This document shows positions 21,001-27,000 of a DNA stretch of 64,000 bases, one piece after another (the stretch's first letter is position 1; every line of letters begins with the position of its first letter). This DNA comes from a candidate division WOR-3 bacterium (GTDB lineage Bacteria > Hydrothermota > Hydrothermia > LBFQ01): NCBI GenBank assembly GCA_039802605.1, contig JBDRWW010000002.1, forward strand, positions 224,001 through 288,000, in the 5' to 3' direction. Made by a program: the position numbers.

Positions 21001-24000
21001 CGGGGAGAAGGCTGAGGTAAAGATTATTAAGTATTTCGGCCTTAAAGAAACCCTAACATTTCCCGTTATAGTTGATACGGTATCGTTTAGAGATTCAACA
21101 CCGGCCAAAGAAGGACTATATATAATGGTGTCCGCCATACCGTCCATATCCGTATCTATAAAGGGGATTTTCGTATTTAAGGGTAAAAGGCAGTCGTTCC
21201 AAGCCTCCCAAGTATCGCCAACGGAAGGGTTGTACCTGGCAAACCTGTAAAAGGGGTTATGGAAGTGATTGTTCCCATACCAAATAAATGTTGAGTCCAA
21301 AAGCGTGTCCCTCTTAATATAAATCTTTGCAATCTTGCCGTATATATCCGTACACGAGCCGTACAATGGTAAATTATATGTTGCCGCAACGCTATCCCTT
21401 TCGTTGTTTCCCCAAGGTATTACCCTATAATCCCAAAAATTGCCTACGCTTAAACCCAAGTAGGATAACATAATTAAAGAATTTTATGGGTGAAAGGTTT
21501 TAAGGATTTATGCCATACCGTCTATTAACTCCGCAAGTTTCCTGTCCTTATCGGTTATTTTATTTCCCTCGTCATGTGTTGTCGTCCGTATTAAAACCCT
21601 GTTATATTTTATTATAATATCCGGGTGATGTCCGAGTCTTTCCGCCAAGATTCCCACCTTAACGACAAACGCCAAAGCCTCAATAAAATCCTTAAAAACA
21701 AACTCCCTTTCAAGAAAATTTTCCCTCTCCAACCACATATTCATTTCCTTATTAAAAAGATATAACCATAAACCGCGAGAATCATAAGGATGCTCAACAC
21801 CCCAACCAGTTTTACCAGCCTCCAAACAACAACCTCATACCTCTTGTTTGCAGAATCATATTCAAAGCAGTATAAGAGAAATTGATATACGAGCTTGTTT
21901 TCCCCTATATTTCCCTTTGAAGCCTCTAAAAGGGATAACCTTACATCCATAGGGTTTATCTCACCCAGATCGTAAATAACTCCGGATGTTTTTCCGTCTG
22001 GGGTTAGCGTGAATATTGCAACCGGATGGGAATACAAGCCGTTTTTTAACATCTTGTATTTATATCCCAACTTTTGGGAGAGTTTTAGGATGTTTAAAGA
22101 ATCCCCTACCGAAAAAATGGCGGCATCTTTGAAGAAGAATTCATAAGTTTTAAACTTTTCAGAAGCATCCTTAACCGTATTTCTGTGGTTGAAGGAATAT
22201 ACGAGAACCCTGTAATCCCTCCCCGGCTTCAAATCCTTTATCTTTGTCAAGGCCTCATATGTTTTTAAAAGCACAGTGGAGCATACTACGGGACAATCGT
22301 AATACATCGGCACGATTAAAACCGGCCTTTTACCATCAAAAATTTCGGCAATATTGAACCTCCTACCGTTTTGATCCGTAAGGAAAACATCATCCACTTT
22401 AACCCCACCTTTAAAATCAACCCCCACGCCCTTAATATCGTTGGGAACATATGTACTAAATTCTGCGATAAAAATTATCATCGCATACCAAAATACCCCG
22501 CCCTTGTTAGGACATCAATTATGGGTAATGCCAAGAGGATTAACAGAAGTAAAAGGGGTATTGTTATCATAAACCACAGCAGCTTACTCTCGTATTTTAA
22601 ATGCATAAAGAACAATGCCACCAATGACGCCTTTACGGATGCTATTGAAAGGGCTATTATGGTGTTCGTAATTTTACCCAAGTCTATCCCCGCCGCCCAA
22701 ACGGTTATAAAGGTTAGAATGTAAAGGGCTATTGCAACCGCAAGATATACGGGCGGCGTAACTATGTGTTCCTTATGATTATCTTTCATCCCCCACCTCC
22801 TTATTTTATCAAATAGAAAAGCGGGAAAAGGTATATCCATATTAAATCCACGAGGTGCCAGTAAAGACCGGAAACTTCAACGGGTCCGTAATATTCGGAT
22901 GAAAACTTCCCCCTTAAAGCCATAATGAGTATCCCAGTAAGGACCAACACACCCACCAACACATGCAATCCGTGTAATCCCGTAAGCATAAAGTATAGGG
23001 AGAAGAATAAGGCTTGACCCTTATGCCCCTCTTGTATGAAATGGTTGAACTCTTTACCTCCGGGGTATAAGCCCTCGTGAAACTTGACGGGCCATTCAAC
23101 CGTCAATTTCACAACCAAGAATGCTACTCCCAAAAGTATTGTCAATAAAAGGAAGAGGTTTAACAGATTCTTCCTGTTGGTTTGGGCGCTCCAAACACCC
23201 ATAGCCATTGTAAAGGAACTCGTTATAAGTACAATGGTATTGATAAAACCTATTGTCCTGTTGAGGTGGTGGTGCGCTATTTCAAAATCCTTGGCATATA
23301 CGGAATGGAAAACGGCATACGCGGCAAACAGGCCACCGAACAGTAATAACTCCGTGAACAGGAAAAGCCACATCCCCATTTTTGCCCCTTCAAGGCCGGC
23401 ATGCCTTTCTTCATGATGTTTTTCAAGGGTTGCCTCCATACCTAACCTCCTTAGTGTTTTACGAAATCGTAAGGACCCTCTTTAACCACGGGTATTTTTT
23501 CAAAGTTTTCCGTTGGAGGGGGTGAGGGTATTGTCCATTCAAGGGATTTACCACCCCAAGGGTTATCCGGAGCCTTCTTACCCTTCCATATGGCAAAGAG
23601 AAATACGCCGAGGGATATCAATATTCCCGCCGCTATGAAGTAAGAACCTATGGTTGATGTGAAGTGCAAAGGTTGAAATTCTACGGGGTAATCCCAATAC
23701 CTTCTAGGCATACCCCGAATGCCCAAGATAAATTGCGGGAAGAAAGTTAAGTTAAACCCTATGAAATTGAGCAGCCAACCCACCTTCGCCCACTTTTCGT
23801 TATACATCTTTCCAAACATTTTTGGAGTCCAGTGGAAGAGCGCCCCGAAAAAGGCGAAAACCGCCGCGCCAACCATAACGTAGTGAAAGTGCCCAACCAC
23901 AAAATATGTGTCATGCAGGTGTATATCCGTTCCGAGGTTTGCCAAAAATAAACCCGTTAAACCACCTATTAAGAATAGGGATATAAATCCTAAGGCGTAA

Positions 24001-27000
24001 AGCATGGGGGTTGTGAAAGAAATTTTACCTTTATACAATGTAGCCGTCCAGTTGAATATCTTTACGGCCGTGGGAACGGCAACAAAATATGTTAAAAATG
24101 AGAAAATTATATCCGCAACCGGGGACATACCCGCAACGAACATGTGGTGCCCCCAAACCAAAAATCCTATAAAGGCTATTGCAAGGGAAGATGCCGCTAT
24201 AAACCAATACCCAAATATGGGCTTCCTGCTATGGACGGATACCAATTCCGAGATAACCCCGAAAGCGGGCAGTATCATTATATAAACGGCCGGGTGGGAA
24301 TAAAACCAGAATAAGTGTTGGAACAAAACCGGATCACCACCCTTCGCAGGATTAAAGAAACCTATACCCAAAATGTTCTCCATGCCCAAGAGTAATAGGG
24401 TTATACCCAAAACGGGTGTGGCTAGCAACTGCACTAAACTTGTGGCATACAATGCCCATACGAACAAAGGTAATTTACCCCATGTTAATCCGGGTGCCCT
24501 TAATTTATGAATCGTAACTATGAAGTTCATACCCGTTAAAATGGAGGACATTCCGAGTGTGAAAATGGCTAAGGAAACGATAAAAACATTAAGTCCCTTG
24601 TTTGCGCTGTAAGGTGTGTAAAATGTCCAACCCGTATCTATTGGTCCAAATAGAAGGGAAGCCAAAAGCATCAAAGCGCCCAAAACGAAGATCCAATAGC
24701 TCAGAAGGTTTATCCTCGGGAACGCAACATCCCTTGCACCGATCATTATGGGTAAAAAGAAGTTTCCCAAACCCGATGGTATTATGGGAATTATCACCAA
24801 AAAGATTAAAATTGCACCGTGTAGGGTGAAGAGTATGTTGTGGGCTTCCGGTGATAAAAATTGCTTTCCGGGAAAGAGTAATTCGGTTCTGAATATTATT
24901 GCAAACAGTCCTCCAACGAGTAGGAATATGAGGCTTGTGAACATATACATTAGGCCTATTCTCTTGTGATCCAGGGTAAAAAGCCACGATTTTAAACCCT
25001 TTGCATCCAAATAGCTATTATGCCTTTCAACCGCTTCCCTTACTTCCATTTTTCACCTCCTTTATTTAAGCGTTTTTATAAACTCAACAATGTCCGAAAT
25101 TTGTTCCTCGGTCAATTGCCCCTGAAATGAGGGCATAACCGCCTGATAACCCTTAACTATTTTAGCCTTGGGTTCAAGGATGGATTCCCTTATGTAATTC
25201 TCGTCGGCAACAACCCTTTTTCCATCGGATAACTCCACATCACGGCCGAATAAACCCTTCCAAGTTGGACCTATACCCGGAGAACCATCAAAAGAATGGC
25301 AACTTACACAGAGTTTTTGTGATATTATTTTACCCCTTTCCGCCGGGGATAAAGAGGCTAAGAGTTTTTCCTGTGCCCCGGACCACTCGTTAAACTCCTC
25401 ATCCGAAAGGCTTAATATGGCATAAACGGAGTCTAAGGGCATGTTTGCCAAAGTGTTGTTAAACCTGTCGGCGGGTATGGACTTAAACCTTTCAAACAGT
25501 TTTGGTGGCAATGCAACCACCTTTGCCGGCATCCTTGAATGCCAAGCCCCACAATATTCCGTACAGAAAACCTCGTATTCCCCTGGTTTTTTTGCCTCAA
25601 ACCATATCTTTGTGAACCTGCCGGGAATCGCATCGTATTTTGCCCTAAACTCTGGAACATAAAAACTGTGTATAACATCTTGCGAGGTAAGGATTAACCG
25701 TACGGGTTCCCCCGCGGGTACAAAAATTACGGGTTGAAAATCCTTAGGCGTTATACCCTTATCGTCTTTTATGGTTCCCGTAATAATCTTTTTACCATCG
25801 GGATATTCCGCAGTCCAACCCCATTGCCTTGCGGTTATTCTGATTTCAAGGGAAGGCTGGTTTTCCGGCCATTTAACTTTGGCATAAGCCTTATACCCGA
25901 ACCAGAATATGACAAAAAGTAGGATTGTGGGTATAACCGTCCATACTATTTCCAAAGTGGTATTATGGCTTATGGGTGCTCCCACTCCTTCATCTCCCGG
26001 ACTTCTGCGATACTTTATTATAAAAACCAAGAGCGCTATGTTTATTATTGCAAAGAATACAAACGATAGCCAGAAGGTAATCCAAAATGCGGTATCGGTA
26101 TTTACGGCGTATGTGGATGCCCTTTCCGGCAAAAGTGTAATTATCCACATAGACTTGATATTATAAAGTGGTAAAGTTGCAAATGCATTGCATTTTAACC
26201 GAAGAAGTGTTTGGCGTTCAGAAACTCATCCACGCTAACGGTTTTTAATCTACCAACGCAGGCATGCATATCCAAAGTCATAACATCGTATCCGTTGTAC
26301 GCGGTTATATAACCGAATTTTTTGTTTTTTAAAAGCTCATAGGCGAAGTTCCCCATTGTGTGTGCCATAAGTCTATCATAGGCGGATGGGGATCCACCCC
26401 TTAAAACATAACCTATTTCAACAAACCTGGTTTCCAAGTTTAATATACTTGCGAGCTTCCTCTGTATGTGTATTCCAACATTTTGAACCTTTTGGTCGGA
26501 ATATCTAACACCTTCCGCAACCACAACTATACTAAAACTTCTCCCTATCTTCTTCCTATTTTCAATAACTTCCGCTATCTCATCAATTGTTAAAGGATAT
26601 TCGGGAATAACTATTACATCCGCACCTGCCGATATTCCGGAGTAAAGGGCTATCCATCCCGTATGCCTCCCCATAACCTGAACCACAAAAACCCTTTTGT
26701 GGGATTCCGCCGTGGAATGGAGTCTGTCTATAAGGTTTGTTGCGACATTAACGGCGGTATCAAACCCTATGCTTTCCGTTCCCCATATATCGTTATCTAT
26801 GGTTTTCGGAATAAACACAACCCTACCCCAAACCCTCTGAAAGTGGTTTGCAATGTGTAAAGAACCGTTTCCGCCTATAACGATTAAACCATCAATACCT
26901 TCAAGGTTTTCAAGGGCTTTGTTCAAAAAATCCCCATCATCCAAGGGGTTAAACCTTGATGTTCCGAGAATGGTACCCCCTTGATAAATTATCCCGCTAA

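What a model noticed while it worked through the whole genome (the two positions that open the first line are those of the whole stretch)
22478..26150. Oxygen- and N2O-respiring family with no haem synthesis
The genome encodes caa3 (here) and ba3 oxidases, a Rieske/cytochrome b complex, several c cytochromes, Ccm maturation, haem O and A synthases and HemW, but no step of tetrapyrrole synthesis. It must scavenge haem b from its hot-spring neighbours and convert it to haems a and c; a ChaN-like haem-binding protein (C8:3744) is kept across the family.
Evidence so far: GlutR, ALAD, PBG deaminase, URO-D, coproporphyrinogen oxidase and ferrochelatase absent from the tables. Six-frame searches: ALAD 0 here and in 1 of 11 family relatives; PBG deaminase 0 of 5; ferrochelatase 0 of 5; controls ring. 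COX1, CtaA and cytochrome b each in 10 of 11 relatives, the haem-binding family in 9 of 11.
(Added by a program. Inside this text positions count along the whole contig: contig position 224,001 is position 1 of the stretch shown here. "Call 12" and the like, gene names such as g00115 and contig names such as C1 are that model's own, and its searches are not shown. The text may have been shortened before it was handed on; [...] marks where a part breaks off. The agent that wrote the report below was given it as the finding of a first reader that could run no searches.)

Follow-up and report, generated by a model that had tools for sequence, protein, structure and literature searches.

The report
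Hot-spring respirers that cannot make haem
This hot-spring bacterium and nearly all its close relatives breathe oxygen with haem-dependent enzymes but carry no genes to make haem, so they most likely take it from neighbours, a lifestyle already described in other microbes but not spelled out for this family.

Summary
Observation confirmed. The window holds an intact A2-type caa3 oxidase operon. The genome (Caldipriscus-like, WOR-3) also encodes a ba3-type oxidase, a Rieske/cytochrome b complex, clade II NosZ, haem O/A synthases, HemW and Ccm genes, but none of nine hem genes was found six-frame, even with profiles built from relatives. ALAD, PBG deaminase and ferrochelatase each occur in 1 of 11 family relatives, against CtaA 11, CcmC/F 11, COX1 10, NosZ 9. 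The exception carries the whole pathway as one cassette whose tree follows the order's taxonomy, so repeated loss is likelier than gain. Best reading: haem auxotrophy (0.88). The importer is not identified; best candidate is a family-wide, ChuA-like TonB receptor without the usual His ligands (about 0.3); the ChaN-like protein is inconclusive. Not a new kind: Calditenuis in hot-spring streamers, and WOR-3 at phylum level, are published haem auxotrophs, and the missing early genes were tabulated for Caldipriscus in 2016 under cobalamin. My two look-ups in this scan's notes found no earlier report of it on other DNA.

The parts
25062..26150 (-). ctaC: subunit II of caa3 oxidase, CuA site plus fused C-terminal cytochrome c (needs haem c)
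   Evidence: TIGR02866 179.5 bits over cut-off 147.7; CuA motif at 196-207 and CxxCH at 281
23451..25049 (-). ctaD: subunit I, A2-type haem-copper oxidase (needs haems a and a3)
   Evidence: TIGR02891 685.9 bits over cut-off 670.75; His ligand motifs and YSHPAVY present (A2 label from recalled classification)
22801..23439 (-). ctaE: subunit III
   Evidence: subunit III families at E 1e-29, below their lineage-specific cut-offs
22478..22789 (-). ctaF: caa3-type subunit IV (103 aa)
   Evidence: TIGR02229 74.4 bits over cut-off 37.25; ribosome-binding site before 22789
21741..22481 (-). SCO1/SenC copper chaperone, overlapping ctaF stop
   Evidence: PF02630 23.3 bits, just over cut-off 22.8; CxxxC at 63
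281..1495 (+). nosD, tail of the clade II nos operon; nosZ itself lies just before the window (contig C2:221238-223229)
   Evidence: PF05048 104.7 bits; TIGR04246 919 bits for NosZ
1464..2937 (+). ABC ATPase and membrane protein after nosD (nosF and nosY by position; labels inferred)
   Evidence: gene calls; ABC ATPase profile hit
10684..11211 (-). further CxxCH protein (probable periplasmic cytochrome c), another haem consumer
   Evidence: CxxCH scan; no family search run on it

Best explanation
This Caldipriscus-like bacterium, and 10 of its 11 sampled family relatives, are haem auxotrophs. The ancestor of the order carried a coproporphyrin-dependent pathway as one cassette (hemA-hemC fusion, hemD, hemB, chdC, hemL, hemE, cpfC/hemH, cgoX/hemY); most lineages lost it whole. 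Because ferrochelatase and ChdC are gone too, the cell needs finished haem b, not a porphyrin precursor (inferred). It imports haem through a TonB-dependent receptor and probably the single FecCD-type ABC permease (inferred; substrate not shown), hands it on via HemW, converts part to haems o and a with CtaB and CtaA, and attaches it to apocytochromes with a CxxxY-type System I, to run caa3, ba3, the Rieske/cytochrome b complex and the cytochrome c that feeds NosZ. Shown: gene presence and absence, distribution, cassette tree. Inferred: dependence on outside haem, route and donor. Best importer candidate: receptor C12:14578-16563 (about 0.3); ChaN-like protein as periplasmic haem buffer about 0.3.
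For: No hem gene found by Pfam, by tblastn with the congener's proteins, or by unfiltered custom profiles, while the same families score 259-516 bits in congener G003. Control genes are found in 10-12 of 12 family genomes; if all 11 hem-less genomes held the cluster, independent loss to incompleteness would have odds near 1e-11 (independence assumed). G003's ccmC neighbour is attached to the cluster, whereas in G000, G002 and G004 ccmC follows recN directly, mid-contig. 46 tRNAs for all 20 amino acids and 39 of 46 contig ends in repeats suggest a near-complete, repeat-broken assembly. Five-gene tree: G003 joins the sister family (0.999), then class relative G042 (0.982); GC of the cassette matches the host. 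An independent 2016 table lists GlutR, GSA aminotransferase, ALAD, HMB synthase and UROS as absent in both Pyropristinus types (PMC4791363 Table S4). RNA-library contigs from one run cover ctaC, ctaD and ctaE at 99%+ identity (not proof of transcription), and Caldipriscus oxidase transcripts are published (PMC11696919 section 9). C12 receptor: 10 of 11 family relatives, best NCBIfam TonB-hemin, ChuA in the top three structural matches (Z 35.8-36.5, rmsd 2.6-2.8, 534-540 aligned).
Against: All genomes are MAGs; none with oxidases is closed. In G015 the contig starts within 80 bases of where G014's cluster abuts the shared flank gene, so that absence may be an assembly gap. G003's hem contig itself ends in a repeat family that also ends G000 contigs, so a repeat-flanked piece could drop out. 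Pfam missed this family's CcmB in 5 of 5 genomes although a diverged CcmB is there, so profiles can miss genes here. No importer passes a family cut-off: C12's loop His is not conserved and the plug His is missing, Cir scores above ChuA by sequence (88.9 against 85 bits), BtuB and ZnuD are within 1.4 Z of ChuA, and C12 is kept in 3 of 4 hem-positive genomes of the order and not found in 12 of 24 Ccm-positive, hem-less genomes. The one FecCD permease may serve B12, which the cell also needs.
Confidence: 0.88

Rival explanations
1. Assembly or binning artefact: the hem cassette exists but is systematically missing from these MAGs.
For: G000 is 90% complete; the pathway is a single 10-kb block, so one lost contig removes everything; G015 breaks at the expected place; G003's hem contig ends in a repeat.
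Against: Eleven genomes of two genera lack it while control genes are found in 10-12 of 12; the cassette has host-like GC and was binned in G003, G014, G017, G018; the genes that flank it in G003 lie mid-contig in G000 without it; none of 160 ALAD loci had G000-like flanks (both scans saturated, so weak).
Confidence: 0.08
2. The cell makes haem by unrecognised, non-homologous or highly diverged enzymes, or finishes an imported precursor (coproporphyrin, sirohaem).
For: A diverged CcmB escaped Pfam in this family; HemW is a HemN paralogue.
Against: Seven or more steps would need replacing; the congener's enzymes are ordinary; no chelatase, ChdC, CbiX or AhbD-like protein was found; full-motif radical SAM proteins found were HemW, a LipA-like, two methylthiotransferase-like and a QueE-like protein (labels other than HemW recalled), plus a MoaA-like fragment.
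Confidence: 0.02
3. Haem-optional lifestyle: the cell can grow without haem (fermentation or sulfur reduction) and switches on respiration only when haem is available, as lactic acid bacteria do. This keeps the gene loss but removes the 'must scavenge'.
For: Families f4, f7, f9 and f12 of the same class have neither hem genes nor Ccm nor oxidases; the cultured WOR-3 strain sy37 also respires elemental sulfur (PMC12285271 passages).
Against: Two oxidases, NosZ, CtaA, CtaB, Ccm and HemW are kept intact in nearly all family genomes; sy37 did not grow by fermentation. I did not survey fermentation genes in G000.
Confidence: 0.15
4. Direction of change: the family ancestor had no hem genes and G003 gained the cassette from a neighbour such as Thermoflexus.
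For: The same nine genes in nearly the same order occur in Thermoflexus loci; G003's cluster sits where its congeners have recN; the single-gene ALAD tree does not resolve G003's place.
Against: The five-gene tree puts G003 with the sister family, not Thermoflexus; the HemA-HemC fusion is seen only in the 5 class members among 21 rows. Transfer from within the order is not excluded; no AU test was run and the tree is FastTree, midpoint-rooted.
Confidence: 0.2

Closest known systems
Candidatus Calditenuis aerorheumensis (Aigarchaeota; PMC4681859, passages read)
   Same: Aerobic hot-spring streamer heterotroph with a haem-copper oxidase and no haem synthesis genes; authors propose uptake from neighbours and adding haem to media.
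   Different: An archaeon with a named putative haem transporter; here a diderm bacterium with two oxidases, NosZ, Ccm and many c-type cytochromes, no recognised importer, and a congener that keeps the pathway.
Environmental haem auxotrophs surveyed by Zhang et al. 2024 (PMC11139205, passages and Table S9 rows read)
   Same: Lists WOR-3 and hot springs among haem auxotrophs; notes that most lack known receptors.
   Different: Its three Hydrothermia rows belong to order UBA1063; 'Caldipriscus' has no hit in the 12 of 19 supplementary files searched; auxotrophy was defined by pathway completeness alone, without checking haem demand.
acI Actinobacteria (Kim et al. 2021; not held, seen only as cited)
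   Same: Free-living respirers shown by culture to need exogenous haem.
   Different: Freshwater monoderms; experimentally proven, whereas this case is genomic only.
Pyropristinus T1/T2 reconstruction (PMC4791363, passages and Table S4 rows read)
   Same: Same lineage; records HCO, ccm, and absence of the five early tetrapyrrole enzymes.
   Different: Files the absences under cobalamin; the passages found draw B12 and biotin auxotrophy, not haem.
ChuA/ShuA/PhuR haem receptors and C. jejuni ChaN (PDB hits; PMC3417520 passages)
   Same: C12:14578 has the TonB-receptor fold with FRAP/NPNL-like motifs; C8:3744 is in the ChaN family.
   Different: C12 lacks conserved His ligands and has nine invariant Arg; the ChaN-like gene has no receptor beside it and its ligand Tyr alignment is ambiguous; ChaN's own transport role is described as unclear.

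Membership tests
Haem auxotroph | No de novo pathway (C5 or Shemin entry, ALAD, PBG deaminase, UROS, and any of the three late branches) | tested here: met
   ALA synthase was not searched on its own, but is useless without ALAD
Haem auxotroph | Intact haem-requiring proteins | tested here: met
Haem auxotroph | A haem uptake system | tested here: inconclusive
   about ten TonB-receptor-like genes, one FecCD permease, two binding proteins, none over a haem-family cut-off; no Dpp/Opp binding protein in 5 of 5
Haem auxotroph | Growth or respiration depends on added haem | not testable with these tools
   needs a culture
A2-type caa3 oxidase | Six His ligands and YS motif in subunit I; CuA and fused cytochrome c in subunit II; subunits III and IV | tested here: met
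   (the YS = A2 rule is recalled)
B-type (ba3) oxidase | Divergent subunit I with His ligands, short CuA subunit II, one-helix subunit IIa | tested here: met
   C1:230658-232876: 551, 145 and 41 aa; CtaD score 112.6 against cut-off 670.75; no B-type model was available, label inferred from layout
Clade II nitrous-oxide reductase | Sec-type NosZ over the curated cut-off with nosD | tested here: met
Cytochrome c maturation System I (CxxxY variant) | CcmC, CcmE with CxxxY, CcmF | tested here: met
Cytochrome c maturation System I (CxxxY variant) | CcmA and CcmB | tested here: inconclusive
   CcmB: Pfam 0 of 5, no PDB hit, but C4:79512 scores 0.93 to CcmB clusters and is in 11 of 11 relatives; two ATPases score best as CcmA, both under the cut-off
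ChaN haem-binding lipoprotein | PF04187 domain | tested here: met
ChaN haem-binding lipoprotein | Haem-ligating Tyr (Tyr148; residue identity recalled) | tested here: inconclusive
   aligned exactly, one residue off; conserved in 6 of 6 family/g3 sequences and absent in 5 of 5 f7/f12 sequences
ChaN haem-binding lipoprotein | Gene next to a TonB-dependent receptor | tested here: not met
   neighbours are two anti-sigma-antagonist-like genes and an acyl-CoA dehydrogenase-like gene (labels recalled)
ChuA/ShuA-type haem receptor (for C12:14578) | Plug-and-barrel fold with FRAP/NPNL-like motifs | tested here: met
ChuA/ShuA-type haem receptor (for C12:14578) | Conserved plug His and loop His/Tyr ligands | tested here: not met
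   no plug His; loop His at that position in 4 of 18 sequences
ZnuD-type metal receptor (for C6:94209) | Plug DH and loop His motifs; best profile match | tested here: met
   ZnuD E 2.7e-15, PhuR 7.9e-8; H151 and H411 invariant in 16; Foldseek ranking not discriminating

The most novel reading that the evidence does not exclude
An order of hot-spring respirers has repeatedly deleted a single ancestral haem cassette and lives on neighbours' haem through an undescribed uptake route: a ChuA-shaped receptor (C12:14578) that grips the porphyrin propionates with invariant arginines instead of ligating iron with histidines, with a Tyr-type ChaN protein as periplasmic buffer. It would be a first handle on the unknown receptors that most environmental haem auxotrophs are said to have.
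Probability: 0.2. Interest if true: 0.65.

Novelty: new member of a known kind. Interest (0 to 1): 0.42.

Why it matters
Caldipriscus is reported as an abundant, still uncultured member of hot-spring streamer communities (PMC11696919, passages). A haem requirement gives a concrete, cheap cultivation test (add haemin or a haemoprotein) and may bear on why the one cultured WOR-3 respirer grew only on yeast extract (PMC12285271; its hem status was not seen). It adds a second abundant haem borrower to the habitat of Calditenuis, makes N2O reduction by this family dependent on partners, and offers a natural pair (G003 with the cassette, congeners without) plus candidate proteins for finding how environmental auxotrophs take up haem.

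Tried and rejected
TonB receptor C6:94209 first looked like a haem receptor (two His aligned to ChuA) but its profile matches ZnuD best and it follows a CruR-like upstream ORF: judged a metal-ion receptor. C6:51416 has a TGH plug motif but is in 2 of 11 relatives. C3:58853 is OprC-like and C2:16042 BtuB-like (BtuB label from recalled motifs). Dpp/Opp: none in 5 of 5. The two binding proteins match haem, B12 and siderophore binders alike. No cobalamin riboswitch in 8 loci. The idea that Ccm lacks CcmAB was dropped. Searching for a hidden hem contig by ALAD in metagenomes and genomes gave 160 loci, none with G000-like flanks, but both scans were saturated and near-identical records may be left out. 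The ALAD-only tree was unresolved and its careful search unfinished; an IQ-TREE run on the five-gene set timed out, FastTree was used. The RNA runs are contigs only: X19 and X20 cover little, and cover cannot rank genes. An empty-site test in G015 was ambiguous; the left flank in G014 is a repeat family. Kim et al. 2021 is not held. Literature searches: 'heme auxotroph'+'hot spring' (5 papers), lineage names (88, 30 listed), 'heme auxotrophy'+MAG+oxidase (3), Calditenuis (2), haem A synthase (5), 'Caldipriscus'+'heme biosynthesis' (0); spelling 'haem' was not searched and subscription papers are not covered. Seven of 19 supplementary files of PMC11139205 and the supplements of PMC11696919 and PMC4681859 were not searched and may bear on novelty.
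Full report
1. What the window holds. On the minus strand, 21741-26150 is a five-gene operon: subunit II with CuA and a fused cytochrome c, subunit I, subunit III, subunit IV and an SCO chaperone. Subunits I, II and IV pass NCBIfam cut-offs; all His ligands, the YS motif of A2 oxidases (rule recalled), the CuA motif and CxxCH are intact. The first 3 kb of the window is the tail of a clade II nos operon whose nosZ lies just upstream. The finding is really about the genome, so I laid it: 1,651,953 bases, 23 contigs, 46 tRNAs for all 20 amino acids, 1717 genes by my own caller. A receptor homologue 54% identical clusters with a protein labelled Candidatus Caldipriscus, and 19 of the 20 runs holding the operon are labelled hot-spring, sediment or plain metagenome, 17 of them hot springs; 7 may be the source of this DNA.

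2. Haem demand. Besides caa3, G000 encodes a ba3-type oxidase (C1:230658-232876), a Rieske protein, cytochrome b and pentahaem cytochrome c (C5:81412-84517), and 14 CxxCH proteins, not all cytochromes. Haem O synthase, CtaA and HemW pass cut-offs. CcmC, a CxxxY-type CcmE and CcmF are present and scattered. Pfam found no CcmB in 5 of 5 genomes, but C4:79512, kept in 11 of 11 relatives, scores 0.93 to CcmB clusters. In one RNA library, contigs at 99%+ identity cover ctaC, ctaD and ctaE; contigs cannot prove transcription. Caldipriscus oxidase transcripts are published (PMC11696919, section 9 read).

3. Haem supply. ALAD is found in 19 of 61 genomes of the class but not in G000, and in 1 of 11 family relatives; controls ring in 11 of 14. 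Ferrochelatase: 10 of 61, family 1 of 11. PBG deaminase: 17 of 64, family 1 of 11. The exception is always congener G003, whose contig carries a complete coproporphyrin-dependent cassette: hemA-hemC fusion, hemD, hemB, chdC, a TIGR04053 radical SAM protein, hemL, hemE, ferrochelatase, hemY. None of these, nor the hem genes of 7 further relatives' loci including sirohaem-type clusters and a CbiX, hits G000 by tblastn at E<1e-4, except HemL to an acetylornithine-type aminotransferase. Profiles from 12 to 104 sequences per gene, run without filters on all six-frame ORFs of 50 aa or more, gave nothing for six genes and only other-family hits for three. The sole tetrapyrrole-methylase hit is RsmI. 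Since the late enzymes are gone too, a precursor would not do; finished haem is needed (inference).

4. Is it an artefact? Control genes are found in 10 to 12 of the 12 family genomes: CtaA 12, CcmC/F 12, ChaN-like 12, COX1 11, NosZ 10. Eleven independent misses would have odds near 1e-11, though a shared cause could break independence. The cassette has host-like GC and was binned in four genomes of the order. The genes beside it in G003 lie mid-contig in G000, and ccmC follows recN directly in G000, G002 and G004. 39 of 46 contig ends lie in repeats, as in a near-complete assembly, but G003's hem contig ends in one of those repeat families. Against my reading: G015 breaks where its close relative G014 has the cluster, so not every absence in the order is clean; the CcmB case shows that profiles can miss genes here, although G003's hem enzymes score 259-516 bits; and the scans for a hidden cluster were saturated. 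An independent 2016 table also lists the five early enzymes as absent in both Pyropristinus types (PMC4791363 Table S4 rows).

5. History. The nine-gene set recurs in Thermoflexus with the last two genes swapped. A five-gene tree of 21 loci (all loci in hand with hemB, hemE and hemH) joins G003 to the sister family (0.999) and then to class relative G042 (0.982), away from Thermoflexus; the HemA-HemC fusion appears only in those 5 rows. The ALAD-only tree is unresolved. Inheritance with repeated whole-cassette loss is the simpler reading; transfer within the order is not excluded. Across the 61 genomes, all 20 with any of the three hem genes have Ccm, but 24 of the 44 with Ccm, and 16 of the 26 with a haem-copper oxidase family member over cut-off, have none of the three, so the trait is wider than this family.

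6. The importer. G000 has about ten TonB-receptor-like genes, ExbBD-TonB, one FecCD permease, two helical-backbone binding proteins and no Dpp/Opp binding protein. C6:94209 has two invariant His that align to ChuA's, but its profile prefers ZnuD and in 8 of the 12 loci inspected it follows a short ORF with a membrane helix, HxH and Cys, and a C-terminal RSPP/RAPP, the layout of the copper-sensing CruR leader (PMC9426467, passages): a metal-ion receptor is likelier. C12:14578 is in 10 of 11 family relatives and 4 of 7 of the sister family; its best NCBIfam is TonB-hemin at 65.9 bits against a cut-off of 316.85; an orthologue's only PDB hit is PhuR; the family profile ranks Cir 88.9, ChuA/ShuA 85, PhuR 79 bits; and the model (pLDDT 80.4) ranks ChuA first, Z 36.5 against 35.2 for BtuB. 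It lacks conserved His ligands and has nine invariant Arg, is kept by hem-positive relatives, and was not found in 12 of 24 Ccm-positive, hem-less genomes. It is a candidate, no more. The FecCD permease may be for B12: a B12-binding domain and a ribonucleotide reductase (class II by recall) are present, and B12 import was already proposed for this lineage.

7. The ChaN-like protein. It is in all 12 family genomes, 2 of 7 of the sister family, and 6 of 6 genomes of two families with neither Ccm nor oxidase. Those six are a distant subtype (23-27% identity for the 5 aligned) lacking a Tyr that the family's subtype keeps; that Tyr aligns to ChaN's recalled ligand exactly in a pairwise alignment and one residue off in a profile alignment. 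There is no receptor beside the gene, and ChaN's transport role is itself called unclear (PMC3417520, passages). Verdict: open.

8. Mechanism. Shown: haem-dependent respiratory chain, haem-tailoring and Ccm genes, no synthesis genes, family-wide. Inferred: haem b released by neighbours crosses the outer membrane by a TonB receptor, enters by an ABC permease or an unrecognised carrier, is chaperoned by HemW, prenylated and oxidised to haems o and a, and ligated to apocytochromes by System I. Confidence 0.88 for auxotrophy; about 0.3 for each named uptake candidate.

9. What is known. Calditenuis aerorheumensis is a published hot-spring aerobe with an oxidase and no haem synthesis (PMC4681859, passages). 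A 2024 survey names WOR-3 and hot springs among haem auxotrophs; its three Hydrothermia rows are order UBA1063, and Caldipriscus was not found in the 12 of 19 files searched (PMC11139205). 'Heme' does not occur in the main text of the two 2025 WOR-3 papers, nor in the supplements held (PMC12285271, PMC12542636), and 'Caldipriscus' with 'heme biosynthesis' finds no paper. So the lifestyle is known, and its statement for this respiring family, with the cassette history, appears not to be in the library searched. New member of a known kind; interest 0.42.

Noticed in passing
G000:C6:93881-94144 (L217:1173-1436), upstream of TonB receptor C6:94209: An 88-aa upstream ORF with an N-terminal membrane helix, HxH at 21, Cys at 32 and RSPP at 82; conserved with RSPP/RAPP in G001, G002, G004, G013, G014, G015, G017; no Pfam hit. 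Looks like a CruR-type ribosome-arrest leader with HxH...C in place of CXXC, controlling a ZnuD-like receptor; in the genus the Cys is followed by Pro.
   Followed up: partly
G000:C4:79512-80081: A 189-aa membrane protein with no Pfam or PDB hit that scores 0.93 to CcmB clusters; in 11 of 11 family relatives, unlinked to other ccm genes.
   Followed up: yes
G000:C19 (L297:1-10895): Contig with identical 127-base ends, so probably circular; encodes a tyrosine-recombinase-like gene, a P-loop ATPase, a transposase-like gene and many unknown ORFs (labels by eye): a small virus- or plasmid-like element binned with the genome.
   Followed up: no
window 27163-28392, 16555-18147, 10684-11211 and many genes elsewhere: Many apparently exported proteins begin with only 5-8 hydrophobic residues before the mature domain: ultrashort signal peptides seem to be the rule in this lineage.
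   Followed up: no
L123, L154, L181 (Thermoflexus), L133, L170 (Bathyarchaeia): A compact hemC-hemD-hemB-chdC-hemE-hemH cluster like G003's occurs in Thermoflexus and, without hemL in place, in Bathyarchaeia loci: a coproporphyrin-dependent cassette in archaea.
   Followed up: partly
G024, G030, G035, G039, G043 (family f8); G021, G033 (f5): Further class members with cytochrome c assembly genes and no ALAD, PBG deaminase or ferrochelatase, two of them listed as 100% complete; neither ChaN-like nor a close C12 receptor was found in them.
   Followed up: partly
G000:C2:94426-95385: A trihaem c protein lies near a TonB-receptor-like gene and a binding protein in G000, and directly after the FecCD permease in G005 and G010; chance or a link to uptake.
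   Followed up: no
window 26195-27166: In run X8 a low-depth contig joins 26329 to 27167, skipping most of this phosphofructokinase-like gene: a strain variant with a deletion.
   Followed up: no
G000:C1:209818-210907: A MoaA-like radical SAM fragment and pieces of a TauE-like gene look like a decayed molybdenum-cofactor locus.
   Followed up: no
window 15659-16492: Coiled-coil repeat protein of a family with several copies in the genome, some at contig ends.
   Followed up: no
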